From the NCBI GenBank assembly GCA_000004985.1, contig GG738847.1: DNA of 64,000 bases; one strand, written 5' to 3'. Below are positions 4,483 through 64,000 of this stretch, one piece after another. Position 1 is the first letter of the stretch, and the number at the start of each line of letters is the position of its first letter. The notes beneath the pieces are model-generated. The model had not been told where the DNA came from. It ran no database searches and was given only the letters and a program-made list of their open reading frames with translations. The stretch comes from Naegleria gruberi. Its lineage: Eukaryota. Made by a program: the position numbers and the translations under genes.

Positions 4483-4553
4483 GGGGGCGAGGGGGAATCG
4501 AACCCCCGGCCACAGCTTTGGAGGCTGCGATGTTACCATTACACCACCGCCCC
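4483..4553 (-). tRNA. tRNA-Trp (anticodon CCA)
   Basis: Minus-strand sequence GGGGCGGTGGTGTAATGGTAACATCGCAGCCTCCAAAGCTGTGGCCGGGGGTTCGATTCCCCCTCGCCCCC. Acceptor stem pairs with one G-U, anticodon loop CTCCAAA, T-arm GGGGG-TTCGATT-CCCCC. Confidence 0.85.
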
Positions 4554-47723: not shown

Positions 47724-48233
47724 TTATATGTTTTGCGATGATGCAAGTTTAGAAGTTTCTTCGTTCAAAATACTTTGGATGAGCAATTCATCTTCATGAA
47801 CGTTATTGCTCATTATCGTTTGAGATGTAATAGTCTTAGATTCGAGTGTAGCATTATTTTGTGGTGTAAGAAGCATATCTTCTCCTTGGTACATATCCTC
47901 ATGAATTGTTTGTTCTTCGTAAACTTGTCTGAATTGATCCTTTTGTTTGTAGCAAGCCCAACGGAATATTTGTTGGTCCTTTCTCATTTGTTCATTGAGT
48001 TCTTTAACACAAGTTGGTGAGGCATCGAACAACATCATGACCCATCTTCCCTTGAAATGTTTTTCTCTGTGTCTATACATCGGATAGGCAAGAGGTAAAA
48101 TACCCATATTATCAAGACGACGGATTACTCCCTTATTTTCAAAAACAACTTGAGCATTTCTCTTCATGACTTGGGCGACTGTTGGTAGAGCAGCCTTTGG
48201 ATTCACGAGGTACACCAATTCGTACAATGGCAT
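47724..48233 (-). CDS. Mitochondrial ribosomal protein S6 (bS6m) homolog with C-terminal extension
   Basis: MPLYELVYLVNPKA..VIRRLDNMGILPLAYPMYRHREKHFKGRWVMMLFDASPTCVKEL resembles bS6 (MPLYEL.. N-terminus and overall layout). Confidence 0.6.
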   Translation of the reverse strand: MPLYELVYLVNPKAALPTVAQVMKRNAQVVFENKGVIRRLDNMGILPLAYPMYRHREKHFKGRWVMMLFDASPTCVKELNEQMRKDQQIFRWACYKQKDQFRQVYEEQTIHEDMYQGEDMLLTPQNNATLESKTITSQTIMSNNVHEDELLIQSILNEETSKLASSQNI

Positions 48234-48456: not shown

Positions 48457-48528
48457 TCGGGTGTGGTATAGTGGTAGCATTCCAGACTGTCACTCTGGCG
48501 ACCCGGGTTCAATTCCCGGCACTCGAGT
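48457..48528 (+). tRNA. tRNA-Asp (anticodon GTC)
   Basis: TCGGGTGTGGTATAGTGGTAGCATTCCAGACTGTCACTCTGGCGACCCGGGTTCAATTCCCGGCACTCGAG. Anticodon arm CCAGA-CTGTCAC-TCTGG, T-arm CCGGG-TTCAATT-CCCGG. Close to canonical eukaryotic tRNA-Asp. Confidence 0.85.
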
Positions 48529-48743: not shown

Positions 48744-49982
48744 TTACAACAAGTTACAAATAATCAAGGAAATCAAAACAAGCAAGAAGCTAATCAATGA
48801 TTGAGAGCTAGCACCGCTAGTGGCAGCCAAATAATTTGAATTTTCACTAGAACCACTTGAAGGATCCCAAATTACATTTTCAACTCTTTCAGTCAATGAA
48901 ACCCAGAAACGAGCAACAACAGCATTGGAAGCTTCAGACTTATCCTTGATAAATTGTTCATCAGAATTCAAACTACCTTCAATATTTCTGAATGGAGTGT
49001 AAATTAACTTGCCACGAGTAACAACAGTTGGTGAACTAGAAGAATATTTGGAAATAAACTTTTGGAAACTGAAGAATGGTTTTGGAAGAATTGCTTGATT
49101 GCCATCTAATTGAGTATTCAAATCATTATCAAATTGAGAAACAGCTTGATCATCATTGGCATCATCTGGCTTTTCAACAGCTGATGATTCTCTTGTTCCA
49201 GAGCTTGGCTTTAAGGTTTCATTTTCACCTGATGATTTTTCACGTCTTGAACCACGGAATGCAACAATTGTACCCAAAGCAATCAATGAATTAGATTGAG
49301 AATATTGAATATTAGCCAATTCGAAAGAAACCTTCAATGAGGATGGATTCAATACTTGAACAACACCAGCACGAGAGGCAAACTTTGAGCTATCAATTTG
49401 AACAGTGGCAGTTGAAATGACAGCACTCATTCTAACAGTACAGAAATTGGTAATATTAGTTTCAACCAAAGCATGATAAATATATGAATTATCACTGTCG
49501 TTGAGAAGCTTCTTTGATAAATCAACAATCTTCCATGTTTGTTCACGTAAATTGTAAATCTTTACAACAGTGTCATTACCTGGTTGATAACCTTCAACTC
49601 CACTTGTCTCTTGATATTCAATAATTCTATCGACACCAAATGCAGATCCAACTACAATGGCCAACTCACGTTCAATCTTGGTAATTGGTGTGACAATCTT
49701 GATAGCAGTCTTGGCCTTCATGGCAATGAGTGGAAATCTTTCGAGTGAGGCCAGAAATTCCATCTCTGAGAAGGAACCAACAGCAGTGGCATTGAGTCTG
49801 TCCAATGTACACAAGGCCTTGCTGGTAAACTTGATGGTCTTTTCGTTTCTGTCGACTTCAATCTTTCTACGGCAGAATTTGTTGGTTGGGAAGAGTTTTG
49901 GTGTAATGTCGAAGGAGGTTGATTGAGCTGAGAGGAGAGTGGCCAAACAGCTGAGAATTACAATGAGGAATAAGAGTTTCAT
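48744..49982 (-). CDS. Probable GPI-anchored cell-surface protein (412 aa)
   Basis: Signal peptide MKLLFLIVILSCLATLLSA. Ser-rich stalk. C-terminal hydrophobic GPI-signal-like tail ATSGASSQSLISFLLVLISLIICNLL. Multiple N-glyco sequons. Confidence 0.55.
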   Translation of the reverse strand: MKLLFLIVILSCLATLLSAQSTSFDITPKLFPTNKFCRRKIEVDRNEKTIKFTSKALCTLDRLNATAVGSFSEMEFLASLERFPLIAMKAKTAIKIVTPITKIERELAIVVGSAFGVDRIIEYQETSGVEGYQPGNDTVVKIYNLREQTWKIVDLSKKLLNDSDNSYIYHALVETNITNFCTVRMSAVISTATVQIDSSKFASRAGVVQVLNPSSLKVSFELANIQYSQSNSLIALGTIVAFRGSRREKSSGENETLKPSSGTRESSAVEKPDDANDDQAVSQFDNDLNTQLDGNQAILPKPFFSFQKFISKYSSSSPTVVTRGKLIYTPFRNIEGSLNSDEQFIKDKSEASNAVVARFWVSLTERVENVIWDPSSGSSENSNYLAATSGASSQSLISFLLVLISLIICNLL

Positions 49983-50249: not shown

Positions 50250-51269
50250 TTAGCACAACATGCATTTTTCCTTTTTGTTTAGAACTGGAGCTTTGATAAG
50301 TTTCGAATAGATAAACGTCTTGACAATCAAATCTTCCAATTCTTCCAGTCCAACAAACTCTCTTGAAGATGTTGTCACATAGCTCACAGCACCCATCCGC
50401 TGAGATAGTTTCTTTCCATACGAATCATACTTTTTACACAAATAACTATTCCAATATTTTCCCAAATGAAAATCTCCTGGTTTTGAATAATCACAAATAT
50501 CAGATTTTGTTCCAACGACCAATACTGATCTGTTGTAATCCAAAAATGGTTGAATTTCTGGAAGAAATCTATCAGAAAAATCCTTCAAACACTTATTCAT
50601 CATTACTGGATTTGATATTGAATAGCACATTATAAAAATGTGACACTTGGATGGTGTATCATAAGAATAAGGAGTGTCTACTAATTGTAAACAATAACCT
50701 TCAATCCTCTTAATATCACACGAATTATAGTAACGGGGAACAGAAAAACCCTCTTCCGAATCATTGTATCTTTCATACCTAAGGTGAAGATAGTAACACA
50801 GAGTGGTCTTTCCAATACCATGTGGCCCAATGAAGCAACATCGAATTGGCTCTGATTCTTTCAGTAAATTTGCATATTCCTCCAATTTGAAATTCTCACA
50901 AAATGTCTCAAAGTTTTCAATTTCTTCCGAATATGAACTCCAAGTGTTTTTGAGTTTTTTAATTTTCTTACATTCTTTCAATTTATATGTTCGATCGACC
51001 GATTCCTTGGTTTCTCTATAAATTTTCATTAGAATTTCTCTAATATTCGTACTTTCTGCACGGAGTTTAATGGGTTCTTCTCTATTGAGCAACTTGCCAT
51101 GAATCGAAAGTTGACAGTCGAGTTGTGTTATTCTTCCTCGCCACATCCAATCACTATTTAAAAGATTGAACCAAATGGTATTGACCAACATAAGTTGGAG
51201 ATGTTCGGAAAATGAAAGAAATTTATCAACGATCGTGATGGTATCCAGTGGCAAGAGATTTAATGACAT
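50250..51269 (-). CDS. F-box-like N-terminus fused to a divergent Ras-superfamily small GTPase domain with C-terminal CaaX-like CMLC
   Basis: aaaaATG start. N-terminal LPLDTITIVDKFLSFSEHLQLMLVNTIWFNLL (F-box-like). P-loop CFIGPHGIGKTTL (G1), LQLVDTPYS (G3-like DTxY, missing GQ), VVGTKSDI (G4 [NT]KxD), TTSSRE (G5-like). Ends ..KEKCMLC. Confidence 0.5.
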   Translation of the reverse strand: MSLNLLPLDTITIVDKFLSFSEHLQLMLVNTIWFNLLNSDWMWRGRITQLDCQLSIHGKLLNREEPIKLRAESTNIREILMKIYRETKESVDRTYKLKECKKIKKLKNTWSSYSEEIENFETFCENFKLEEYANLLKESEPIRCCFIGPHGIGKTTLCYYLHLRYERYNDSEEGFSVPRYYNSCDIKRIEGYCLQLVDTPYSYDTPSKCHIFIMCYSISNPVMMNKCLKDFSDRFLPEIQPFLDYNRSVLVVGTKSDICDYSKPGDFHLGKYWNSYLCKKYDSYGKKLSQRMGAVSYVTTSSREFVGLEELEDLIVKTFIYSKLIKAPVLNKKEKCMLC

Positions 51270-51312
51270 TTTTTGATATTATTGAAGAAAATAAAGATGG
51301 TTAAAAAACAGT

Positions 51313-51366
51313 CCGATGAGACGGAATCGAACCGCCGACCACAGGATGACAGTTGTTCTTGCTACA
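51313..51366 (-). pseudogene. tRNA-Tyr(GTA)-like 3' fragment (anticodon loop to 3' end), followed by an oligo-T Pol III terminator; no 5' half found
   Basis: Minus strand GGACTGTAG-caagaacaactgtc-ATCCTGTGGTCGGCGGTTCGATTCCGTCTCATCGGA matches eukaryotic tRNA-Tyr from the anticodon loop onward (GGACTGTAGATCCTTAGGTCGCTGGTTCGATTCCGGCTCGAAGGA), with a 14-nt intron-like insert after position 37 and TTTTTT downstream. The complementary 5' acceptor CCGATGA and D-arm are absent upstream. Confidence 0.4.
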
Positions 51367-51471: not shown

Positions 51472-51521
51472 NNNNNNNNNNNNNNNNNNNNNNNNNNNNN
51501 NNNNNNNNNNNNNNNNNNNNN
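51472..51521. other. 50-N scaffold gap
   Basis: Exactly 50 n characters. Confidence 0.99.
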
Positions 51522-52806
51522 GACAGTAAAATCCTGTACATTACAATGAAAAATAATTAACTTCTGACCCCTCTTCATTGTTCCTTGAAATTCAACTTGA
51601 TATTGAACTTTAACACTTGACAATATCAACTTCCAACTTCCCAAGCAAGCTCTACAAAAAAAATGTCTCAAAACCTTCTCACGGCTGCCACTACCATGAA
51701 CAATCACGAAGAAGAGCTTGAAGTTCCAGGCTTTTCATGGATTATAGAATCGGAATTGGCTGGTATGAAATTTCCATCCCTTCCCGAACATTACAAAAAT
51801 TTAAATCATCATCACATTGGTTTGGTGATTTGTGTGAATGAGAGGGTAGCTTCCTTTGTTGAACAATTACCTCATTCAGAATATTTTAATTTAATTTCTA
51901 AAAAATTACAAAAAATAGAAAATTGTGAAGAATTTACTTATAATGTTGGAAAATTGAATATTGCTCATTTTCCTATTAATGATTATGGAGTTCCTAATAT
52001 GGAATTAATGAATGAAATGATAAAATTGGTAGAATATGTGAGAAAGGTGGATTCGAACAGGGGAATTGTTGTGCATTGCATGGCTGGACTTTCTAGGACT
52101 GGAATGATTCTGGCATGTTTGTTGGTGAGAGTATGGAAAATGACATTTGAGGAGTCAATCAAGTTGGTCAATCAGAAGAGAGGAAGAAATGGTAGAGGAG
52201 TAATGACTAGCAAGCAAGAAGCATTTGTGGAAGATTTTTCAAAGACTATTCCTAATATTCAATAAGATTACTATTTTTAAATACTATTTCGAATCTTACT
52301 AATTAAGAGCTAAAAATTTACTTCTTGAATGCGTCGACCGGGAATTGAAATTTCCTTTTTTGGAATTCATTTAACTTTTAATTTTATGATGAAATTATGA
52401 ATGTTTTATTTTAATATTATTCATGATGTGAAACATCATGTTGAATTCTGTTCATAATATTTAATTCATGATGTGAAACATCATGTTGAATTATTAACAA
52501 ATGTTGTTCTTCAATTTTTAATTGAATGTTGTTCTTTCATTGAATGTTGGAAATATTGGAAAGTTGGAAATAAAAGTTGGAAGTTAGGTAACGGGTTATG
52601 GAATTACCTAATGTGGAAATTGAATTCAATTTTGAAATTGAATTAATACAATGTTTTTTAAATTATTATTATTTAAATGTATTTCACACATTAATTTTGA
52701 TAATGTAATATTAAAGATATTGATAATTGGGTATAGGGAAACGGAATTTCCTAATTGGGAGTCATCACACAATAAATTAAATTTATTATTTATTCATTGA
52801 TGATGT
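51522..52806. repeat. Exact duplicate of 10418..11706 (offset 41104), bounded by N gaps
   Basis: Includes the DUSP23-like CDS and the left junction of the insertion element. Identity appears 100% over 1285 bp. The ORF track shows identical proteins at 10559..11161 and 51663..52265. Confidence 0.9.
51663..52265 (+). CDS. Second copy of the DUSP23-like phosphatase CDS (identical to 10559..11161)
   Basis: Identical 200-aa translation; lies within the gap-bounded duplicate block. Confidence 0.6.
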   Translation: MSQNLLTAATTMNNHEEELEVPGFSWIIESELAGMKFPSLPEHYKNLNHHHIGLVICVNERVASFVEQLPHSEYFNLISKKLQKIENCEEFTYNVGKLNIAHFPINDYGVPNMELMNEMIKLVEYVRKVDSNRGIVVHCMAGLSRTGMILACLLVRVWKMTFEESIKLVNQKRGRNGRGVMTSKQEAFVEDFSKTIPNIQ

Positions 52807-55800
52807 NNNNNNNNNNNNNNNNNNNNNNNNNNNNNNNNNNNNNNNNNNNNNNNNNNNNNNNNNNNNNNNNNNNNNNNNNNNNNNNNNNNNNNNNNNNNNN
52901 NNNNNNNNNNNNNNNNNNNNNNNNNNNNNNNNNNNNNNNNNNNNNNNNNNNNNNNNNNNNNNNNNNNNNNNNNNNNNNNNNNNNNNNNNNNNNNNNNNNN
53001 NNNNNNNNNNNNNNNNNNNNNNNNNNNNNNNNNNNNNNNNNNNNNNNNNNNNNNNNNNNNNNNNNNNNNNNNNNNNNNNNNNNNNNNNNNNNNNNNNNNN
53101 NNNNNNNNNNNNNNNNNNNNNNNNNNNNNNNNNNNNNNNNNNNNNNNNNNNNNNNNNNNNNNNNNNNNNNNNNNNNNNNNNNNNNNNNNNNNNNNNNNNN
53201 NNNNNNNNNNNNNNNNNNNNNNNNNNNNNNNNNNNNNNNNNNNNNNNNNNNNNNNNNNNNNNNNNNNNNNNNNNNNNNNNNNNNNNNNNNNNNNNNNNNN
53301 NNNNNNNNNNNNNNNNNNNNNNNNNNNNNNNNNNNNNNNNNNNNNNNNNNNNNNNNNNNNNNNNNNNNNNNNNNNNNNNNNNNNNNNNNNNNNNNNNNNN
53401 NNNNNNNNNNNNNNNNNNNNNNNNNNNNNNNNNNNNNNNNNNNNNNNNNNNNNNNNNNNNNNNNNNNNNNNNNNNNNNNNNNNNNNNNNNNNNNNNNNNN
53501 NNNNNNNNNNNNNNNNNNNNNNNNNNNNNNNNNNNNNNNNNNNNNNNNNNNNNNNNNNNNNNNNNNNNNNNNNNNNNNNNNNNNNNNNNNNNNNNNNNNN
53601 NNNNNNNNNNNNNNNNNNNNNNNNNNNNNNNNNNNNNNNNNNNNNNNNNNNNNNNNNNNNNNNNNNNNNNNNNNNNNNNNNNNNNNNNNNNNNNNNNNNN
53701 NNNNNNNNNNNNNNNNNNNNNNNNNNNNNNNNNNNNNNNNNNNNNNNNNNNNNNNNNNNNNNNNNNNNNNNNNNNNNNNNNNNNNNNNNNNNNNNNNNNN
53801 NNNNNNNNNNNNNNNNNNNNNNNNNNNNNNNNNNNNNNNNNNNNNNNNNNNNNNNNNNNNNNNNNNNNNNNNNNNNNNNNNNNNNNNNNNNNNNNNNNNN
53901 NNNNNNNNNNNNNNNNNNNNNNNNNNNNNNNNNNNNNNNNNNNNNNNNNNNNNNNNNNNNNNNNNNNNNNNNNNNNNNNNNNNNNNNNNNNNNNNNNNNN
54001 NNNNNNNNNNNNNNNNNNNNNNNNNNNNNNNNNNNNNNNNNNNNNNNNNNNNNNNNNNNNNNNNNNNNNNNNNNNNNNNNNNNNNNNNNNNNNNNNNNNN
54101 NNNNNNNNNNNNNNNNNNNNNNNNNNNNNNNNNNNNNNNNNNNNNNNNNNNNNNNNNNNNNNNNNNNNNNNNNNNNNNNNNNNNNNNNNNNNNNNNNNNN
54201 NNNNNNNNNNNNNNNNNNNNNNNNNNNNNNNNNNNNNNNNNNNNNNNNNNNNNNNNNNNNNNNNNNNNNNNNNNNNNNNNNNNNNNNNNNNNNNNNNNNN
54301 NNNNNNNNNNNNNNNNNNNNNNNNNNNNNNNNNNNNNNNNNNNNNNNNNNNNNNNNNNNNNNNNNNNNNNNNNNNNNNNNNNNNNNNNNNNNNNNNNNNN
54401 NNNNNNNNNNNNNNNNNNNNNNNNNNNNNNNNNNNNNNNNNNNNNNNNNNNNNNNNNNNNNNNNNNNNNNNNNNNNNNNNNNNNNNNNNNNNNNNNNNNN
54501 NNNNNNNNNNNNNNNNNNNNNNNNNNNNNNNNNNNNNNNNNNNNNNNNNNNNNNNNNNNNNNNNNNNNNNNNNNNNNNNNNNNNNNNNNNNNNNNNNNNN
54601 NNNNNNNNNNNNNNNNNNNNNNNNNNNNNNNNNNNNNNNNNNNNNNNNNNNNNNNNNNNNNNNNNNNNNNNNNNNNNNNNNNNNNNNNNNNNNNNNNNNN
54701 NNNNNNNNNNNNNNNNNNNNNNNNNNNNNNNNNNNNNNNNNNNNNNNNNNNNNNNNNNNNNNNNNNNNNNNNNNNNNNNNNNNNNNNNNNNNNNNNNNNN
54801 NNNNNNNNNNNNNNNNNNNNNNNNNNNNNNNNNNNNNNNNNNNNNNNNNNNNNNNNNNNNNNNNNNNNNNNNNNNNNNNNNNNNNNNNNNNNNNNNNNNN
54901 NNNNNNNNNNNNNNNNNNNNNNNNNNNNNNNNNNNNNNNNNNNNNNNNNNNNNNNNNNNNNNNNNNNNNNNNNNNNNNNNNNNNNNNNNNNNNNNNNNNN
55001 NNNNNNNNNNNNNNNNNNNNNNNNNNNNNNNNNNNNNNNNNNNNNNNNNNNNNNNNNNNNNNNNNNNNNNNNNNNNNNNNNNNNNNNNNNNNNNNNNNNN
55101 NNNNNNNNNNNNNNNNNNNNNNNNNNNNNNNNNNNNNNNNNNNNNNNNNNNNNNNNNNNNNNNNNNNNNNNNNNNNNNNNNNNNNNNNNNNNNNNNNNNN
55201 NNNNNNNNNNNNNNNNNNNNNNNNNNNNNNNNNNNNNNNNNNNNNNNNNNNNNNNNNNNNNNNNNNNNNNNNNNNNNNNNNNNNNNNNNNNNNNNNNNNN
55301 NNNNNNNNNNNNNNNNNNNNNNNNNNNNNNNNNNNNNNNNNNNNNNNNNNNNNNNNNNNNNNNNNNNNNNNNNNNNNNNNNNNNNNNNNNNNNNNNNNNN
55401 NNNNNNNNNNNNNNNNNNNNNNNNNNNNNNNNNNNNNNNNNNNNNNNNNNNNNNNNNNNNNNNNNNNNNNNNNNNNNNNNNNNNNNNNNNNNNNNNNNNN
55501 NNNNNNNNNNNNNNNNNNNNNNNNNNNNNNNNNNNNNNNNNNNNNNNNNNNNNNNNNNNNNNNNNNNNNNNNNNNNNNNNNNNNNNNNNNNNNNNNNNNN
55601 NNNNNNNNNNNNNNNNNNNNNNNNNNNNNNNNNNNNNNNNNNNNNNNNNNNNNNNNNNNNNNNNNNNNNNNNNNNNNNNNNNNNNNNNNNNNNNNNNNNN
55701 NNNNNNNNNNNNNNNNNNNNNNNNNNNNNNNNNNNNNNNNNNNNNNNNNNNNNNNNNNNNNNNNNNNNNNNNNNNNNNNNNNNNNNNNNNNNNNNNNNNN

Positions 55801-58800
55801 NNNNNNNNNNNNNNNNNNNNNNNNNNNNNNNNNNNNNNNNNNNNNNNNNNNNNNNNNNNNNNNNNNNNNNNNNNNNNNNNNNNNNNNNNNNNNNNNNNNN
55901 NNNNNNNNNNNNNNNNNNNNNNNNNNNNNNNNNNNNNNNNNNNNNNNNNNNNNNNNNNNNNNNNNNNNNNNNNNNNNNNNNNNNNNNNNNNNNNNNNNNN
56001 NNNNNNNNNNNNNNNNNNNNNNNNNNNNNNNNNNNNNNNNNNNNNNNNNNNNNNNNNNNNNNNNNNNNNNNNNNNNNNNNNNNNNNNNNNNNNNNNNNNN
56101 NNNNNNNNNNNNNNNNNNNNNNNNNNNNNNNNNNNNNNNNNNNNNNNNNNNNNNNNNNNNNNNNNNNNNNNNNNNNNNNNNNNNNNNNNNNNNNNNNNNN
56201 NNNNNNNNNNNNNNNNNNNNNNNNNNNNNNNNNNNNNNNNNNNNNNNNNNNNNNNNNNNNNNNNNNNNNNNNNNNNNNNNNNNNNNNNNNNNNNNNNNNN
56301 NNNNNNNNNNNNNNNNNNNNNNNNNNNNNNNNNNNNNNNNNNNNNNNNNNNNNNNNNNNNNNNNNNNNNNNNNNNNNNNNNNNNNNNNNNNNNNNNNNNN
56401 NNNNNNNNNNNNNNNNNNNNNNNNNNNNNNNNNNNNNNNNNNNNNNNNNNNNNNNNNNNNNNNNNNNNNNNNNNNNNNNNNNNNNNNNNNNNNNNNNNNN
56501 NNNNNNNNNNNNNNNNNNNNNNNNNNNNNNNNNNNNNNNNNNNNNNNNNNNNNNNNNNNNNNNNNNNNNNNNNNNNNNNNNNNNNNNNNNNNNNNNNNNN
56601 NNNNNNNNNNNNNNNNNNNNNNNNNNNNNNNNNNNNNNNNNNNNNNNNNNNNNNNNNNNNNNNNNNNNNNNNNNNNNNNNNNNNNNNNNNNNNNNNNNNN
56701 NNNNNNNNNNNNNNNNNNNNNNNNNNNNNNNNNNNNNNNNNNNNNNNNNNNNNNNNNNNNNNNNNNNNNNNNNNNNNNNNNNNNNNNNNNNNNNNNNNNN
56801 NNNNNNNNNNNNNNNNNNNNNNNNNNNNNNNNNNNNNNNNNNNNNNNNNNNNNNNNNNNNNNNNNNNNNNNNNNNNNNNNNNNNNNNNNNNNNNNNNNNN
56901 NNNNNNNNNNNNNNNNNNNNNNNNNNNNNNNNNNNNNNNNNNNNNNNNNNNNNNNNNNNNNNNNNNNNNNNNNNNNNNNNNNNNNNNNNNNNNNNNNNNN
57001 NNNNNNNNNNNNNNNNNNNNNNNNNNNNNNNNNNNNNNNNNNNNNNNNNNNNNNNNNNNNNNNNNNNNNNNNNNNNNNNNNNNNNNNNNNNNNNNNNNNN
57101 NNNNNNNNNNNNNNNNNNNNNNNNNNNNNNNNNNNNNNNNNNNNNNNNNNNNNNNNNNNNNNNNNNNNNNNNNNNNNNNNNNNNNNNNNNNNNNNNNNNN
57201 NNNNNNNNNNNNNNNNNNNNNNNNNNNNNNNNNNNNNNNNNNNNNNNNNNNNNNNNNNNNNNNNNNNNNNNNNNNNNNNNNNNNNNNNNNNNNNNNNNNN
57301 NNNNNNNNNNNNNNNNNNNNNNNNNNNNNNNNNNNNNNNNNNNNNNNNNNNNNNNNNNNNNNNNNNNNNNNNNNNNNNNNNNNNNNNNNNNNNNNNNNNN
57401 NNNNNNNNNNNNNNNNNNNNNNNNNNNNNNNNNNNNNNNNNNNNNNNNNNNNNNNNNNNNNNNNNNNNNNNNNNNNNNNNNNNNNNNNNNNNNNNNNNNN
57501 NNNNNNNNNNNNNNNNNNNNNNNNNNNNNNNNNNNNNNNNNNNNNNNNNNNNNNNNNNNNNNNNNNNNNNNNNNNNNNNNNNNNNNNNNNNNNNNNNNNN
57601 NNNNNNNNNNNNNNNNNNNNNNNNNNNNNNNNNNNNNNNNNNNNNNNNNNNNNNNNNNNNNNNNNNNNNNNNNNNNNNNNNNNNNNNNNNNNNNNNNNNN
57701 NNNNNNNNNNNNNNNNNNNNNNNNNNNNNNNNNNNNNNNNNNNNNNNNNNNNNNNNNNNNNNNNNNNNNNNNNNNNNNNNNNNNNNNNNNNNNNNNNNNN
57801 NNNNNNNNNNNNNNNNNNNNNNNNNNNNNNNNNNNNNNNNNNNNNNNNNNNNNNNNNNNNNNNNNNNNNNNNNNNNNNNNNNNNNNNNNNNNNNNNNNNN
57901 NNNNNNNNNNNNNNNNNNNNNNNNNNNNNNNNNNNNNNNNNNNNNNNNNNNNNNNNNNNNNNNNNNNNNNNNNNNNNNNNNNNNNNNNNNNNNNNNNNNN
58001 NNNNNNNNNNNNNNNNNNNNNNNNNNNNNNNNNNNNNNNNNNNNNNNNNNNNNNNNNNNNNNNNNNNNNNNNNNNNNNNNNNNNNNNNNNNNNNNNNNNN
58101 NNNNNNNNNNNNNNNNNNNNNNNNNNNNNNNNNNNNNNNNNNNNNNNNNNNNNNNNNNNNNNNNNNNNNNNNNNNNNNNNNNNNNNNNNNNNNNNNNNNN
58201 NNNNNNNNNNNNNNNNNNNNNNNNNNNNNNNNNNNNNNNNNNNNNNNNNNNNNNNNNNNNNNNNNNNNNNNNNNNNNNNNNNNNNNNNNNNNNNNNNNNN
58301 NNNNNNNNNNNNNNNNNNNNNNNNNNNNNNNNNNNNNNNNNNNNNNNNNNNNNNNNNNNNNNNNNNNNNNNNNNNNNNNNNNNNNNNNNNNNNNNNNNNN
58401 NNNNNNNNNNNNNNNNNNNNNNNNNNNNNNNNNNNNNNNNNNNNNNNNNNNNNNNNNNNNNNNNNNNNNNNNNNNNNNNNNNNNNNNNNNNNNNNNNNNN
58501 NNNNNNNNNNNNNNNNNNNNNNNNNNNNNNNNNNNNNNNNNNNNNNNNNNNNNNNNNNNNNNNNNNNNNNNNNNNNNNNNNNNNNNNNNNNNNNNNNNNN
58601 NNNNNNNNNNNNNNNNNNNNNNNNNNNNNNNNNNNNNNNNNNNNNNNNNNNNNNNNNNNNNNNNNNNNNNNNNNNNNNNNNNNNNNNNNNNNNNNNNNNN
58701 NNNNNNNNNNNNNNNNNNNNNNNNNNNNNNNNNNNNNNNNNNNNNNNNNNNNNNNNNNNNNNNNNNNNNNNNNNNNNNNNNNNNNNNNNNNNNNNNNNNN

Positions 58801-61800
58801 NNNNNNNNNNNNNNNNNNNNNNNNNNNNNNNNNNNNNNNNNNNNNNNNNNNNNNNNNNNNNNNNNNNNNNNNNNNNNNNNNNNNNNNNNNNNNNNNNNNN
58901 NNNNNNNNNNNNNNNNNNNNNNNNNNNNNNNNNNNNNNNNNNNNNNNNNNNNNNNNNNNNNNNNNNNNNNNNNNNNNNNNNNNNNNNNNNNNNNNNNNNN
59001 NNNNNNNNNNNNNNNNNNNNNNNNNNNNNNNNNNNNNNNNNNNNNNNNNNNNNNNNNNNNNNNNNNNNNNNNNNNNNNNNNNNNNNNNNNNNNNNNNNNN
59101 NNNNNNNNNNNNNNNNNNNNNNNNNNNNNNNNNNNNNNNNNNNNNNNNNNNNNNNNNNNNNNNNNNNNNNNNNNNNNNNNNNNNNNNNNNNNNNNNNNNN
59201 NNNNNNNNNNNNNNNNNNNNNNNNNNNNNNNNNNNNNNNNNNNNNNNNNNNNNNNNNNNNNNNNNNNNNNNNNNNNNNNNNNNNNNNNNNNNNNNNNNNN
59301 NNNNNNNNNNNNNNNNNNNNNNNNNNNNNNNNNNNNNNNNNNNNNNNNNNNNNNNNNNNNNNNNNNNNNNNNNNNNNNNNNNNNNNNNNNNNNNNNNNNN
59401 NNNNNNNNNNNNNNNNNNNNNNNNNNNNNNNNNNNNNNNNNNNNNNNNNNNNNNNNNNNNNNNNNNNNNNNNNNNNNNNNNNNNNNNNNNNNNNNNNNNN
59501 NNNNNNNNNNNNNNNNNNNNNNNNNNNNNNNNNNNNNNNNNNNNNNNNNNNNNNNNNNNNNNNNNNNNNNNNNNNNNNNNNNNNNNNNNNNNNNNNNNNN
59601 NNNNNNNNNNNNNNNNNNNNNNNNNNNNNNNNNNNNNNNNNNNNNNNNNNNNNNNNNNNNNNNNNNNNNNNNNNNNNNNNNNNNNNNNNNNNNNNNNNNN
59701 NNNNNNNNNNNNNNNNNNNNNNNNNNNNNNNNNNNNNNNNNNNNNNNNNNNNNNNNNNNNNNNNNNNNNNNNNNNNNNNNNNNNNNNNNNNNNNNNNNNN
59801 NNNNNNNNNNNNNNNNNNNNNNNNNNNNNNNNNNNNNNNNNNNNNNNNNNNNNNNNNNNNNNNNNNNNNNNNNNNNNNNNNNNNNNNNNNNNNNNNNNNN
59901 NNNNNNNNNNNNNNNNNNNNNNNNNNNNNNNNNNNNNNNNNNNNNNNNNNNNNNNNNNNNNNNNNNNNNNNNNNNNNNNNNNNNNNNNNNNNNNNNNNNN
60001 NNNNNNNNNNNNNNNNNNNNNNNNNNNNNNNNNNNNNNNNNNNNNNNNNNNNNNNNNNNNNNNNNNNNNNNNNNNNNNNNNNNNNNNNNNNNNNNNNNNN
60101 NNNNNNNNNNNNNNNNNNNNNNNNNNNNNNNNNNNNNNNNNNNNNNNNNNNNNNNNNNNNNNNNNNNNNNNNNNNNNNNNNNNNNNNNNNNNNNNNNNNN
60201 NNNNNNNNNNNNNNNNNNNNNNNNNNNNNNNNNNNNNNNNNNNNNNNNNNNNNNNNNNNNNNNNNNNNNNNNNNNNNNNNNNNNNNNNNNNNNNNNNNNN
60301 NNNNNNNNNNNNNNNNNNNNNNNNNNNNNNNNNNNNNNNNNNNNNNNNNNNNNNNNNNNNNNNNNNNNNNNNNNNNNNNNNNNNNNNNNNNNNNNNNNNN
60401 NNNNNNNNNNNNNNNNNNNNNNNNNNNNNNNNNNNNNNNNNNNNNNNNNNNNNNNNNNNNNNNNNNNNNNNNNNNNNNNNNNNNNNNNNNNNNNNNNNNN
60501 NNNNNNNNNNNNNNNNNNNNNNNNNNNNNNNNNNNNNNNNNNNNNNNNNNNNNNNNNNNNNNNNNNNNNNNNNNNNNNNNNNNNNNNNNNNNNNNNNNNN
60601 NNNNNNNNNNNNNNNNNNNNNNNNNNNNNNNNNNNNNNNNNNNNNNNNNNNNNNNNNNNNNNNNNNNNNNNNNNNNNNNNNNNNNNNNNNNNNNNNNNNN
60701 NNNNNNNNNNNNNNNNNNNNNNNNNNNNNNNNNNNNNNNNNNNNNNNNNNNNNNNNNNNNNNNNNNNNNNNNNNNNNNNNNNNNNNNNNNNNNNNNNNNN
60801 NNNNNNNNNNNNNNNNNNNNNNNNNNNNNNNNNNNNNNNNNNNNNNNNNNNNNNNNNNNNNNNNNNNNNNNNNNNNNNNNNNNNNNNNNNNNNNNNNNNN
60901 NNNNNNNNNNNNNNNNNNNNNNNNNNNNNNNNNNNNNNNNNNNNNNNNNNNNNNNNNNNNNNNNNNNNNNNNNNNNNNNNNNNNNNNNNNNNNNNNNNNN
61001 NNNNNNNNNNNNNNNNNNNNNNNNNNNNNNNNNNNNNNNNNNNNNNNNNNNNNNNNNNNNNNNNNNNNNNNNNNNNNNNNNNNNNNNNNNNNNNNNNNNN
61101 NNNNNNNNNNNNNNNNNNNNNNNNNNNNNNNNNNNNNNNNNNNNNNNNNNNNNNNNNNNNNNNNNNNNNNNNNNNNNNNNNNNNNNNNNNNNNNNNNNNN
61201 NNNNNNNNNNNNNNNNNNNNNNNNNNNNNNNNNNNNNNNNNNNNNNNNNNNNNNNNNNNNNNNNNNNNNNNNNNNNNNNNNNNNNNNNNNNNNNNNNNNN
61301 NNNNNNNNNNNNNNNNNNNNNNNNNNNNNNNNNNNNNNNNNNNNNNNNNNNNNNNNNNNNNNNNNNNNNNNNNNNNNNNNNNNNNNNNNNNNNNNNNNNN
61401 NNNNNNNNNNNNNNNNNNNNNNNNNNNNNNNNNNNNNNNNNNNNNNNNNNNNNNNNNNNNNNNNNNNNNNNNNNNNNNNNNNNNNNNNNNNNNNNNNNNN
61501 NNNNNNNNNNNNNNNNNNNNNNNNNNNNNNNNNNNNNNNNNNNNNNNNNNNNNNNNNNNNNNNNNNNNNNNNNNNNNNNNNNNNNNNNNNNNNNNNNNNN
61601 NNNNNNNNNNNNNNNNNNNNNNNNNNNNNNNNNNNNNNNNNNNNNNNNNNNNNNNNNNNNNNNNNNNNNNNNNNNNNNNNNNNNNNNNNNNNNNNNNNNN
61701 NNNNNNNNNNNNNNNNNNNNNNNNNNNNNNNNNNNNNNNNNNNNNNNNNNNNNNNNNNNNNNNNNNNNNNNNNNNNNNNNNNNNNNNNNNNNNNNNNNNN

Positions 61801-64000
61801 NNNNNNNNNNNNNNNNNNNNNNNNNNNNNNNNNNNNNNNNNNNNNNNNNNNNNNNNNNNNNNNNNNNNNNNNNNNNNNNNNNNNNNNNNNNNNNNNNNNN
61901 NNNNNNNNNNNNNNNNNNNNNNNNNNNNNNNNNNNNNNNNNNNNNNNNNNNNNNNNNNNNNNNNNNNNNNNNNNNNNNNNNNNNNNNNNNNNNNNNNNNN
62001 NNNNNNNNNNNNNNNNNNNNNNNNNNNNNNNNNNNNNNNNNNNNNNNNNNNNNNNNNNNNNNNNNNNNNNNNNNNNNNNNNNNNNNNNNNNNNNNNNNNN
62101 NNNNNNNNNNNNNNNNNNNNNNNNNNNNNNNNNNNNNNNNNNNNNNNNNNNNNNNNNNNNNNNNNNNNNNNNNNNNNNNNNNNNNNNNNNNNNNNNNNNN
62201 NNNNNNNNNNNNNNNNNNNNNNNNNNNNNNNNNNNNNNNNNNNNNNNNNNNNNNNNNNNNNNNNNNNNNNNNNNNNNNNNNNNNNNNNNNNNNNNNNNNN
62301 NNNNNNNNNNNNNNNNNNNNNNNNNNNNNNNNNNNNNNNNNNNNNNNNNNNNNNNNNNNNNNNNNNNNNNNNNNNNNNNNNNNNNNNNNNNNNNNNNNNN
62401 NNNNNNNNNNNNNNNNNNNNNNNNNNNNNNNNNNNNNNNNNNNNNNNNNNNNNNNNNNNNNNNNNNNNNNNNNNNNNNNNNNNNNNNNNNNNNNNNNNNN
62501 NNNNNNNNNNNNNNNNNNNNNNNNNNNNNNNNNNNNNNNNNNNNNNNNNNNNNNNNNNNNNNNNNNNNNNNNNNNNNNNNNNNNNNNNNNNNNNNNNNNN
62601 NNNNNNNNNNNNNNNNNNNNNNNNNNNNNNNNNNNNNNNNNNNNNNNNNNNNNNNNNNNNNNNNNNNNNNNNNNNNNNNNNNNNNNNNNNNNNNNNNNNN
62701 NNNNNNNNNNNNNNNNNNNNNNNNNNNNNNNNNNNNNNNNNNNNNNNNNNNNNNNNNNNNNNNNNNNNNNNNNNNNNNNNNNNNNNNNNNNNNNNNNNNN
62801 NNNNNNNNNNNNNNNNNNNNNNNNNNNNNNNNNNNNNNNNNNNNNNNNNNNNNNNNNNNNNNNNNNNNNNNNNNNNNNNNNNNNNNNNNNNNNNNNNNNN
62901 NNNNNNNNNNNNNNNNNNNNNNNNNNNNNNNNNNNNNNNNNNNNNNNNNNNNNNNNNNNNNNNNNNNNNNNNNNNNNNNNNNNNNNNNNNNNNNNNNNNN
63001 NNNNNNNNNNNNNNNNNNNNNNNNNNNNNNNNNNNNNNNNNNNNNNNNNNNNNNNNNNNNNNNNNNNNNNNNNNNNNNNNNNNNNNNNNNNNNNNNNNNN
63101 NNNNNNNNNNNNNNNNNNNNNNNNNNNNNNNNNNNNNNNNNNNNNNNNNNNNNNNNNNNNNNNNNNNNNNNNNNNNNNNNNNNNNNNNNNNNNNNNNNNN
63201 NNNNNNNNNNNNNNNNNNNNNNNNNNNNNNNNNNNNNNNNNNNNNNNNNNNNNNNNNNNNNNNNNNNNNNNNNNNNNNNNNNNNNNNNNNNNNNNNNNNN
63301 NNNNNNNNNNNNNNNNNNNNNNNNNNNNNNNNNNNNNNNNNNNNNNNNNNNNNNNNNNNNNNNNNNNNNNNNNNNNNNNNNNNNNNNNNNNNNNNNNNNN
63401 NNNNNNNNNNNNNNNNNNNNNNNNNNNNNNNNNNNNNNNNNNNNNNNNNNNNNNNNNNNNNNNNNNNNNNNNNNNNNNNNNNNNNNNNNNNNNNNNNNNN
63501 NNNNNNNNNNNNNNNNNNNNNNNNNNNNNNNNNNNNNNNNNNNNNNNNNNNNNNNNNNNNNNNNNNNNNNNNNNNNNNNNNNNNNNNNNNNNNNNNNNNN
63601 NNNNNNNNNNNNNNNNNNNNNNNNNNNNNNNNNNNNNNNNNNNNNNNNNNNNNNNNNNNNNNNNNNNNNNNNNNNNNNNNNNNNNNNNNNNNNNNNNNNN
63701 NNNNNNNNNNNNNNNNNNNNNNNNNNNNNNNNNNNNNNNNNNNNNNNNNNNNNNNNNNNNNNNNNNNNNNNNNNNNNNNNNNNNNNNNNNNNNNNNNNNN
63801 NNNNNNNNNNNNNNNNNNNNNNNNNNNNNNNNNNNNNNNNNNNNNNNNNNNNNNNNNNNNNNNNNNNNNNNNNNNNNNNNNNNNNNNNNNNNNNNNNNNN
63901 NNNNNNNNNNNNNNNNNNNNNNNNNNNNNNNNNNNNNNNNNNNNNNNNNNNNNNNNNNNNNNNNNNNNNNNNNNNNNNNNNNNNNNNNNNNNNNNNNNNN
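52807..64000. other. Assembly gap (11,194 N)
   Basis: Uninterrupted n run to the end of the window. Confidence 0.99.

What the first reader, a model, noticed from the sequence alone, without database searches (positions are those of the whole stretch)
50250..51269. F-box-like domain fused to a divergent small GTPase with CaaX-like tail
The N-terminal ~45 aa have an F-box-like hydrophobic pattern (LPLDTI..VDKFL..L...LVNTIWFNLL). The remainder has P-loop GPHGIGKTT, a G3-like DTPY that lacks the catalytic Gln, G4 TKSD, and a C-terminal CMLC. The G3 lacks the Gln and the conserved Gly, which suggests a GTP-locked or non-hydrolysing Ras-like module. If both domains are real, this would combine SCF-ubiquitin-ligase recruitment with a prenylated GTPase-like membrane switch.
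Basis: inference. Interest (0 to 1): 0.5.

Follow-up and report, generated by a model that had tools for sequence, protein, structure and literature searches.

The report
Naegleria F-box–Rho gene, switch II deleted
This is a Naegleria gruberi Rho-type small GTPase gene with a weak but real F-box at its front end, a combination already reported for this amoeba; its odd "G3 motif" comes from a recent 87-bp deletion that removed an intron plus ten codons of the switch II region, so it is ordinary in kind and possibly decaying.

Summary
ORF 50250-51269 (-) encodes 339 aa with every motif quoted. It is 100% identical to N. gruberi XP_002682426.1, "rho family member".

- **Rho domain:** Pfam Ras scores above its cut-off. 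The best sequence and fold matches are all Rho/Rac/Cdc42, and the Rho insert and CaaX are present.
- **F-box:** below Pfam's cut-off for this protein alone (E 0.12). It is supported at profile level: PDB hits are almost all F-box proteins (E 1e-4 to 1e-3), hhalign against annotated Naegleria F-box–Rac N-termini gives 92%, and the shuffle test gives p about 0.002.
- **G3 anomaly:** DTPY is not a point-mutated G3. A ~90% identical paralog carries DTPGQEDYDRLRPLSY, split by a 57-nt intron. The window copy lacks that intron plus 15 nt of each flanking exon (87 nt, in frame; Rac1 residues 60-69). The switch I Thr is Arg and Gly12 is His.

It therefore cannot be a GTP-regulated or "GTP-locked" switch. 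It is either a non-cycling prenylated F-box adaptor or a young duplicate on its way to decay. Other deletion-bearing copies are fragments, one of them frameshifted.

F-box–Rho fusions in Naegleria were published by Herman et al. 2021 (PMC8296547), although this gene is listed there as plain "Rac". Interest is low.

The parts
50250..51269 (-). Complete single-exon coding sequence (339 codons plus TAA stop) of N. gruberi XP_002682426.1
   Evidence: ORF list. 100% identity to P0001. Colinear with the paralog coding sequence in L002.
51138..51257 (-). Divergent F-box-like domain, aa 5-44 (LPLDTITIVDKFLSFSEHLQLMLVNTIWFNLLNSDWMW)
   Evidence: Pfam F-box E 0.12 and F-box-like E 0.15. Both matches span nearly the whole model but fall below the cut-off. 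The family N-terminal profile hits mostly F-box proteins in PDB: 13 of 18 listed, E from 1e-4. Without the Willaertia sequence, 5 of 6 hits are F-box/WD proteins, E 1e-3. hhalign against annotated Naegleria F-box–Rac N-termini: 92%, E 5.8e-7. Shuffle test: 34 of 20000.
50853..51137 (-). Predicted helical linker, aa 45-139, between the F-box and the G domain
   Evidence: AF2 with MSA predicts long helices at 40-60, 76-126 and 129-138, with low to moderate pLDDT. No Pfam match. The same spacing occurs in homologs P0009, P0021 and P0018.
50304..50849 (-). Rho-family G domain, aa 141-322
   Evidence: Pfam Ras 24.7 bits, above the 21.6 cut-off. phmmer against PDB: TC10, Rac1, RhoA. Foldseek top 50 are all Rho/Rac/Cdc42/ROP.
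50805..50828 (-). G1 P-loop GPHGIGKT (aa 148-155). His stands at the position of Ras/Rac Gly12.
   Evidence: Alignment A1 with Rac1, RhoA and H-Ras.
50733..50735 (-). Arg179 at the position of the invariant switch I Thr (Rac1 Thr35)
   Evidence: HMMER alignment to TC10 (VPR vs VPT). Alignment A1. The paralog has His here.
50667..50678 (-). Remnant of G3, D198-T199-P200-Y201. The deletion junction lies between 50674 and 50673. Relative to the paralog, 87 nt are missing: 15 nt of exon, a 57-nt intron and 15 nt of exon, encoding GQEDYDRLRP.
   Evidence: DNA alignments of the window with L002 and L001. Spliced L002 product. Identical corrected model for XP_002668220.1* in Herman et al. Table S8.
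50499..50510 (-). G4 motif TKSD (aa 254-257), intact
   Evidence: Alignment A1; D257 is nearly invariant.
50415..50498 (-). Rho insert region, aa 258-285 (ICDYSKPGDFHLGKYWNSYLCKKYDSYG)
   Evidence: Alignment A1: the segment is present in the window protein, Rac1 and RhoA and gapped in H-Ras. AF2 models a helix at 267-292, with aa 257-274 below pLDDT 50.
50364..50372 (-). G5 remnant T300-S301-S302 (canonical SAK/SAL)
   Evidence: Alignment A1; S301 is nearly invariant.
50253..50276 (-). Basic patch plus CaaX box, KKEKCMLC (aa 332-339)
   Evidence: Cys336 is nearly invariant in alignment A1. The CaaX is conserved in relatives: CILC, CLLC, CLIC, CLIT, CLVQ and CFLQ, CMLQ, CILQ.

Best explanation
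The gene is a young, N. gruberi-lineage-specific duplicate within Naegleria's known set of F-box–Rho ('Rac + F-box') genes. Its layout is an N-terminal divergent F-box, a helical linker of about 95 aa, a Rho-type G domain and a basic CaaX tail.

Its parent-type paralog, XP_002668220.1 with the corrected model, has a canonical switch II (DTPGQEDYDRLRPLSY) interrupted by a 57-nt intron. In the window copy an 87-bp genomic deletion removed that intron plus 15 nt of each flanking exon. This left the frame intact and excised Rac1-equivalent residues 60-69.

Together with Arg in place of the switch I Thr and His at position 12, the product keeps the nucleotide-binding elements (P-loop, TKSD, Ser of G5). 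It has lost both gamma-phosphate sensors, the catalytic Gln and most of the surface used by GEFs, GAPs, GDI and effectors.

If the protein is made, the inferred mechanism is a constitutively prenylated, membrane-anchored F-box protein. It would dock to Skp1/SCF through the F-box and use a non-cycling Rho-fold module as a static binding domain, with no GTP regulation.

Shown here: identity, architecture, the deletion and its origin (about 0.9 confidence). Inferred: Skp1 binding, prenylation, nucleotide binding, any substrate, and that the copy is functional at all. The stated confidence of 0.5 is for the whole statement including function.
For: - **Identity:** 100% match to XP_002682426.1.
- **Rho domain:**
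- **F-box at profile level:**
- **Same architecture in relatives:** P0009 and P0021 from metagenomes, Willaertia P0018 with Kelch + F-box-like + Rho, and about a dozen N. gruberi 'Rac' rows flagged F-box in Table S8.
- **Deletion:** seen in three independent sequences, namely the window, P0003 and the ENA contig L001. It is absent from L002, P0002 and P0023.
- **Paralog splice:** the spliced paralog product equals the manually corrected model of Herman et al..
- **Cost of the deletion:** the intact paralog scores 47.3 bits on Pfam Ras against 24.7 for the window copy.
- **Frame and selection:** the ORF is intact and the deletion is in frame. Pairwise dN/dS against L002 is 0.43 (Fisher p 0.001), and 0.23 in the C-terminal G-domain part.
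- **Tolerated motif loss:** other intact family members also carry degenerate G motifs, e.g. GKY and LTVADDDY in P0021 and GEGNGVTS in ACER01000199. This suggests the family tolerates loss of GTPase chemistry.
- **Published proposal:** GTPase-linked ubiquitination for these fusions.
Against: - The F-box does not reach Pfam's cut-off in this protein (12.8 vs 20.5 bits). Its AF2 confidence is low, with pLDDT 46-68.
- Deleting switch II removes the main partner-binding surface of Rho proteins, so a 'binding module' role is not obvious.
- The other deletion-bearing copies are a 5'-truncated frameshifted fragment (L001: 5 frame-breaking indels, 10 non-synonymous to 1 synonymous changes) and a 3' fragment fused into another gene model (P0003).
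- Changes specific to the window lineage are 3 non-synonymous to 1 synonymous, which is indistinguishable from neutrality.
- dN/dS is 0.79 across the G1-G2 region.
- No expression data could be consulted.
Confidence: 0.5

Rival explanations
1. The window copy is a non-functional relic in the making. A recent segmental duplicate suffered a crippling in-frame deletion of switch II and has not yet had time to pick up stops or frameshifts.
For: - Its closest relatives carrying the same deletion are clearly dead or fragmentary: L001 has 5 frame-breaking indels and a 10:1 non-synonymous to synonymous ratio, and P0003 is a 3' fragment.
- Only 4 substitutions are specific to the window lineage (3 non-synonymous, 1 synonymous), so an intact ORF is expected even under neutrality.
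- The gene lies 1.5 kb from a scaffold end, next to an assembly gap.
- Herman et al. describe birth-and-death turnover in Naegleria's F-box GTPase clades.
- The deleted residues are invariant in Rho proteins.
Against: - The ORF, start codon, F-box pattern, G1, G4 and CaaX are all intact.
- The deletion is exactly in frame and removes the whole intron.
- Overall dN/dS against the intact paralog is below 1 (0.43), though this cannot be assigned to the window branch.
- Other intact family members have degenerate G motifs.
- Herman et al. did not flag the gene as a pseudogene.
Confidence: 0.35
2. One reading: a GTP-locked, non-hydrolysing Ras-like switch that couples SCF recruitment to a permanently 'on' prenylated GTPase.
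For: - The catalytic Gln is absent and position 12 is His. Substitutions at these positions make Rnd and RhoH proteins GTPase-deficient (established knowledge).
- The P-loop and TKSD are intact.
Against: - The missing Gly/Gln are part of a 10-residue deletion of switch II, not substitutions.
- The switch I Thr is Arg.
- Without Thr35, Gly60 and the switch II helix there is no structural basis for a GTP-specific active conformation. This is an inference from the canonical loaded-spring mechanism of Ras-like GTPases.
Confidence: 0.07
3. The N-terminal 45 aa are not an F-box but a family-specific helical extension. On this view the protein is simply an atypical Rac paralog, as listed in Herman et al. 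Table S8.
For: - Pfam F-box and F-box-like matches are below the gathering cut-offs in the window protein and its paralog.
- phmmer of aa 1-139 against PDB finds nothing.
- AF2 confidence in this region is low.
- The curators did not flag an F-box for this gene.
Against: - Both Pfam models match over nearly their full length, in register.
- Profiles of the family N-termini hit mostly F-box proteins in PDB, aligned at their F-box.
- hhalign gives 92% against N-termini whose members pass or approach Pfam F-box.
- Empirical p is about 0.002 for the window sequence alone.
Confidence: 0.12
4. The P-loop belongs to another NTPase class (STAND, AAA or NACHT) rather than to a small GTPase.
For: Sub-threshold Pfam matches to nSTAND3, AAA_28, AAA_22 and NACHT.
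Against: - These matches cover only 20-45 residues around the P-loop and fall far below their cut-offs.
- The Ras match spans 173 residues and passes its cut-off.
- All sequence and fold neighbours are Rho-family proteins.
Confidence: 0.01

Closest known systems
Naegleria F-box–Rho ('Rac' + F-box, some with Kelch/BTB) genes catalogued by Herman et al. 2021 (PMC8296547, Additional file 4 and Table S8), and Willaertia magna KAL9648013.1
   Same: Same organism group and same order of parts: F-box, helical linker, Rho G domain, CaaX. The N-terminal profiles are homologous (hhalign 92%). G motifs are frequently degenerate, and the family shows lineage-specific expansion with pseudogenes.
   Different: This gene and its paralog are listed there as plain 'Rac' with no F-box flag. 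Their F-box is more divergent and sub-threshold. The window copy alone lacks switch II because of the 87-bp deletion.
RhoBTB (atypical Rho fused to BTB domains; Cul3 ubiquitin-ligase adaptor)
   Same: An atypical Rho-like domain is joined to a cullin-RING-ligase adaptor module. The logic is analogous: a GTPase fold attached to a ubiquitin ligase.
   Different: The adaptor here is an F-box (Skp1/Cul1 type), not BTB (Cul3 type). It is N-terminal rather than C-terminal. No BTB match was found. RhoBTB lacks a CaaX, whereas this protein has one. Naegleria also has true RhoBTB genes, listed separately.
TbFRP of Euglenozoa (FYVE + F-box + Rab-like GTPase; PMC3593210)
   Same: An F-box lies upstream of a Ras-superfamily G domain in another discoban lineage. 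The role of that F-box is also unknown, and a link to turnover has been proposed.
   Different: TbFRP has a FYVE domain and a Rab18-like G domain. Its authors found no N. gruberi ortholog. The protein here is Rho-type, has no FYVE domain, and is anchored by CaaX rather than by PI3P binding.
GTPase-deficient atypical Rho proteins (Rnd1-3, RhoH) and pseudo-GTPases
   Same: Deviations at positions 12 and 61 with retained nucleotide-binding motifs, and a farnesyl-type CaaX as in Rnd proteins (established knowledge).
   Different: Rnd and RhoH keep a full-length switch II and the switch I Thr, and are constitutively GTP-bound. Here ten switch II residues are physically missing and Thr35 is Arg.

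Membership tests
Rho family of Ras-superfamily small GTPases | Ras-type G-domain match above the curated threshold | tested here: met
   PF00071 scores 24.7 bits against a 21.6 cut-off, over aa 144-316. The intact paralog scores 47.3 bits.
Rho family of Ras-superfamily small GTPases | Closest relatives by sequence and fold are Rho/Rac/Cdc42 | tested here: met
   phmmer against PDB gives TC10, Rac1, RhoU and RhoA. The Foldseek top 50 are all Rho-family. The MSA used for the model was itself Rho-rich.
Rho family of Ras-superfamily small GTPases | Rho insert between G4 and G5 | tested here: met
   In alignment A1, aa 258-285 align with the Rac1 and RhoA insert and are gapped in H-Ras.
Rho family of Ras-superfamily small GTPases | G1 GxxxxGK[ST] and G4 [NT]KxD nucleotide-binding motifs | tested here: met
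   GPHGIGKT and TKSD.
Rho family of Ras-superfamily small GTPases | Switch I Thr (Thr35) and G3 DxxGQ with a full switch II | tested here: not met
   Arg179 replaces the Thr. GQEDYDRLRP is deleted relative to the paralog.
Rho family of Ras-superfamily small GTPases | C-terminal CaaX prenylation box | tested here: met
   CMLC follows KKEK. The Cys is conserved across relatives. Actual prenylation cannot be tested here.
Rho family of Ras-superfamily small GTPases | GTP binding, hydrolysis and GTP-dependent effector binding | not testable with these tools
   Requires biochemistry.
F-box proteins (SCF substrate receptors) | F-box domain match above the Pfam gathering threshold | tested here: not met
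   PF00646 scores 12.8 bits against 20.5, and PF12937 scores 12.3 against 24.3. The paralog scores 15.4 and 14.4 bits.
F-box proteins (SCF substrate receptors) | Profile-level homology to bona fide F-box domains | tested here: met
   Family N-terminal profiles hit FBXW12/19/21/24, FBXO3, beta-TrCP, FBXO4 and FBXL5 at their F-boxes, with E from 1e-4 to 1e-3. hhalign against Naegleria/Willaertia F-box–Rac N-termini gives 92%, E 5.8e-7. Six of those seven hit Pfam F-box, best E 3e-6. Shuffle test p is about 0.002.
F-box proteins (SCF substrate receptors) | Three-helix F-box fold | tested here: inconclusive
   AF2 predicts helices at 8-18, 21-27 and 31-37, but pLDDT is only 46-68.
F-box proteins (SCF substrate receptors) | Binding to Skp1 | not testable with these tools
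   No complex prediction or experiment was available.
RhoBTB | Tandem BTB domains C-terminal to the Rho domain | tested here: not met
   No BTB match at E up to 10. The protein ends 17 residues after the G domain.
TbFRP (FYVE–F-box–GTPase) | N-terminal FYVE domain and a Rab-like G domain | tested here: not met
   No FYVE match. The G domain is Rho-type. The authors found no N. gruberi ortholog.

The most novel reading that the evidence does not exclude
The switch II-less copy is expressed and kept by selection as a neofunctionalised, prenylated pseudo-GTPase F-box receptor. One possibility is a membrane-anchored, constitutively assembled SCF adaptor. Another is a decoy that competes with its intact paralog XP_002668220 for Skp1 or membrane sites. 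It would have been created in one step by a deletion that removed an intron and the switch together.
Probability: 0.2. Interest if true: 0.5.

Novelty: new member of a known kind. Interest (0 to 1): 0.25.

Why it matters
This finding has limited importance. F-box–GTPase fusions in Naegleria, and the idea of GTPase-linked ubiquitination, are already in the literature, and the gene is already annotated as a Rho family member.

Three things are added here:
- This gene and its paralog XP_002668220, listed as plain "Rac", probably belong to the F-box–Rho set.
- The apparent "Gln-less G3" is a deletion scar, not an evolved catalytic variant. This warns against reading motif loss in young paralogs as a designed GTP-locked state.
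- It is a clean example of an in-frame genomic deletion that removes an intron together with flanking codons.

If the copy proved functional, it would be a natural experiment on what a Rho fold can do without switch II.

Tried and rejected
- **Scan of genome contigs for relatives:** no relatives. That collection holds only bacteria and archaea.
- **Single-sequence AlphaFold:** pLDDT 35, unusable.
- **phmmer of aa 1-139 against PDB:** nothing.
- **Word-indexed protein search with the N-terminal alignment:** nothing.
- **Exact-sequence contig look-ups for P0001, P0002 and P0003:** not on record. NEG-M DNA of the paralogs was therefore unavailable, and ENA contigs L001 and L002 were used instead.
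- **Other NTPase classes (nSTAND3, AAA, NACHT, RsgA):** P-loop-only matches below threshold. Rejected.
- **Cryptic-splice or retrocopy origin of the deletion:** the deleted segment has no GT..AG borders, and the P0023 fragment still carries the intron. A genomic deletion is favoured. A 3-nt ACC repeat at both borders in L002 may indicate microhomology.
- **Rfam scan of the upstream tRNA-like element:** only a T-arm-like fragment.
- **L001 flanking ORFs:** no Pfam domains, so no evidence for transposon capture.
- **Literature searches for the accession numbers and for PRJEB11402:** no papers.

Full report
**Where we are**

The window is about 33% G+C. Real sequence ends at 52806, the remainder is N padding, and there is a 50-N gap at 51472-51521. 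The ORF at 50250..51269 on the minus strand is 339 codons long. It is 100% identical over its full length to NCBI XP_002682426.1 / EFC49682.1, "rho family member [Naegleria gruberi]", on a 941,567-bp scaffold. The gene therefore sits about 1.5 kb from a scaffold end. No second copy lies in the window.

**Observation**

**The GTPase part**

- Pfam Ras (PF00071) matches aa 144-316 at 24.7 bits, above the 21.6-bit cut-off.
- Hits to STAND, AAA and NACHT models cover only the P-loop and are far below threshold.
- phmmer against PDB returns TC10, Rac1 (including Naegleria fowleri Rac, 5vcu), RhoU and RhoA.
- An AlphaFold model built with an 18-sequence alignment has mean pLDDT 66.7, and roughly 75-90 across most of the G-domain core. 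Its 50 best Foldseek matches in PDB are all Rho, Rac, Cdc42 or ROP.

Aligned with Rac1, RhoA and H-Ras, the protein shows:

| Element | State in the window protein |
|---|---|
| G1 | Present (GPHGIGKT), with His at the Gly12 position |
| G4 | Present (TKSD) |
| G5 | Ser retained (TSS) |
| Rho insert | Present; absent from H-Ras |
| C-terminus | Basic patch plus CaaX (KKEKCMLC) |
| Switch I | Arg179 in place of Thr35 |

The CaaX cysteine is conserved in all relatives. Their boxes read CILC, CLLC, CLIC, CLIT, CLVQ, CFLQ, CMLQ and CILQ. The final residue is never Leu or Phe. By the usual CaaX rule this points to farnesylation rather than geranylgeranylation, which is an inference.

**What the "DTPY G3" really is**

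Searches found N. gruberi paralog fragments and two ENA metagenome contigs from a close relative.

Contig L002 carries a complete paralog that is 90-93% identical in DNA. Exactly where the window reads GACAC|TCC (DTP|Y), L002 has 87 extra nucleotides:
- ACCAGGTCAGGAAGA
- a 57-nt GTAAGT...CTCAG intron
- TTATGACAGATTAAG

Spliced, L002 encodes DTPGQEDYDRLRPLSYDKPSKCH, the textbook Rho switch II. The same sequence appears in the manually corrected model of XP_002668220.1 in Herman et al. 2021, Table S8.

This also explains two database models:
- P0002 ends in "GQEE" because the model reads through into the intron.
- P0023 shows "GQEELRPLSY", which is what splicing to an AG 9 nt downstream of the CTCAG acceptor would give.

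The window copy has therefore lost the intron plus 15 nt of each flanking exon. The loss is in frame and removes Rac1-equivalent residues 60-69: Gly60, Gln61 and the first half of switch II.

The deletion is real, not an assembly error. It is shared by the window, by P0003 on another NEG-M contig, and by the independently assembled contig L001. It costs about 23 bits of Pfam Ras score, 24.7 against 47.3 in the intact paralog. The deleted segment is not bounded by GT..AG. A 3-nt ACC repeat lies at both borders in L002, so a microhomology-mediated genomic deletion is the simplest origin. That is an inference.

**The F-box**

Evidence on the window protein alone:
- Pfam F-box and F-box-like match aa 5-44 over nearly the whole model, but only at E 0.12 and 0.15, below the cut-offs.
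- The paralog scores E 0.018-0.038.
- The window N-terminus scores 8.9 bits against an HMM built from the annotated F-box–Rac N-termini described below (alignment A5). Only 34 of 20,000 composition-matched shuffles reach that score.

Evidence from relatives and profiles:
- An exhaustive HMMER search found distant full-length relatives with the same layout: P0009 and P0006/P0021 from metagenomes, and Willaertia magna KAL9648013.1, which has Kelch + F-box-like + Rho.
- A profile of five N-termini hits mostly F-box proteins in PDB, aligned at their F-boxes, with E from 1e-4. These include FBXW12/19/21/24, FBXO3, beta-TrCP, FBXO4 and FBXL5.
- Leaving out the Willaertia sequence still gives FBXW21 and FBXW12 at E 1e-3.
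- hhalign of that profile against N-termini of Naegleria/Willaertia Rac proteins annotated with an F-box gives 92% probability, E 5.8e-7. Six of those seven sequences hit Pfam F-box, best E 3e-6.

I conclude that a divergent F-box is probable. Skp1 binding is untested, and the AF2 confidence for the three short helices is low.

**Is the copy alive?**

- Pairwise dN/dS between the window gene and L002 is 0.43 (28 synonymous and 52 non-synonymous changes; Fisher p 0.001). It is 0.79 over the G1-G2 segment and 0.23 over the C-terminal part.
- Polarised with L001, the window lineage has only four private substitutions, 3 non-synonymous and 1 synonymous. That gives no power.
- L001 has 10 non-synonymous to 1 synonymous changes plus five frame-breaking indels, and lacks the first ~130 codons. 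It is a pseudogene fragment.
- P0003 is a 3' fragment merged into a DUF4116 gene model.

The deletion-bearing lineage thus consists of one intact gene (this one) and at least two dead pieces. The data cannot separate "young functional pseudo-GTPase" from "relic not yet disrupted". I put these at roughly 0.5 and 0.35.

**Mechanism**

Established knowledge says Ras-like switches depend on Thr35 and Gly60 contacting the gamma-phosphate, and that switch II carries the catalytic Gln and much of the GEF, GAP, GDI and effector interface. All of these are missing here, while the nucleotide-binding motifs remain.

The product may therefore still bind nucleotide, but it cannot cycle or signal a GTP state. 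The "GTP-locked" reading is not supported.

If the protein is expressed, the most likely behaviour is a CaaX-anchored F-box protein that brings an inert Rho-fold module to Skp1/SCF at a membrane. This would parallel RhoBTB with Cul3. Other intact family members also have degenerate G motifs, which fits a role that does not need GTPase chemistry.

**Comparison with the literature**

Herman et al. 2021 (PMC8296547, Additional file 4) report the following:
- This points to GTPase-dependent ubiquitination.
- Some F-box Rab-like clades show birth-and-death evolution.

Table S8 lists about a dozen N. gruberi "Rac" genes with an F-box. XP_002682426.1 and XP_002668220.1* appear there as plain "Rac", with no F-box or pseudogene flag.

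TbFRP of Euglenozoa (FYVE–F-box–Rab-like GTPase) is another precedent. Its authors found no N. gruberi ortholog.

**Verdict**

The unusual G3 is a deletion scar in a young paralog. The gene is a new member of a known kind, and interest is low.

Noticed in passing
window 51308-51345 (-), 40-75 nt upstream of the ATG: A tRNA 3'-half-like remnant, CTGTGGTCGGCGGTTCGATTCC, matches tRNA-Trp(CCA) at 4483-4553 at 20 of 22 positions. It is followed by TGTTTTTT, a pol III terminator-like T-run. Neither ARAGORN nor Rfam calls a tRNA here.
   Followed up: partly
window 51472-51521 and 52807-64000: A 50-N assembly gap lies about 200 nt upstream of the gene. The scaffold ends at 52806 and the rest of the window is N padding. 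The gene family is split over small contigs in the NEG-M assembly (4,040 and 28,592 bp).
   Followed up: yes
N. gruberi proteins P0003 (XP_002668755.1) and P0023 (XP_002672299.1); P0002 (XP_002668220.1): Public gene models look wrong. P0003 fuses a DUF4116 protein to a 3' fragment of this gene family. P0023 joins an unrelated Cys-rich N-terminal region to another 3' fragment, and its GQEELRPLSY fits use of an acceptor 9 nt downstream of the canonical one. P0002 is truncated by read-through into the 57-nt intron.
   Followed up: partly
L001 2446-3286 (ENA ERZ929261 contig): A 5'-truncated, frameshifted copy carries the same switch II deletion. Its 3' flank matches the window's 3' flank up to the contig end. 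The upstream ORFs of 359 and 254 aa have no Pfam match.
   Followed up: partly
window 51663-52265 (+): The divergently oriented neighbour encodes a 200-aa dual-specificity/PTP-type phosphatase (VHCMAGLSRTG; Pfam DSPc and PTP-SAK, E 1e-12 to 1e-14).
   Followed up: partly
window 48744-49982 (-): A 412-aa ORF has an N-terminal signal-peptide-like segment, a Ser-rich middle and a hydrophobic C-terminus that looks GPI- or TM-like. It has no Pfam match.
   Followed up: no
window 47724-48233 (-) and 48457-48527 (+): A ribosomal protein S6 family gene (PF01250, E 1e-21) with a long C-terminal extension lies next to a tRNA-Asp(GTC) gene.
   Followed up: no
window about 52425-52500, read on the minus strand: Two direct copies of about 26 nt, AACATGATGTTTCACATCATGAAT, lie near the scaffold end. 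Each contains a short inverted repeat (CATGATG...CATCATG). Nearby are TTCCAAC-type short repeats.
   Followed up: no
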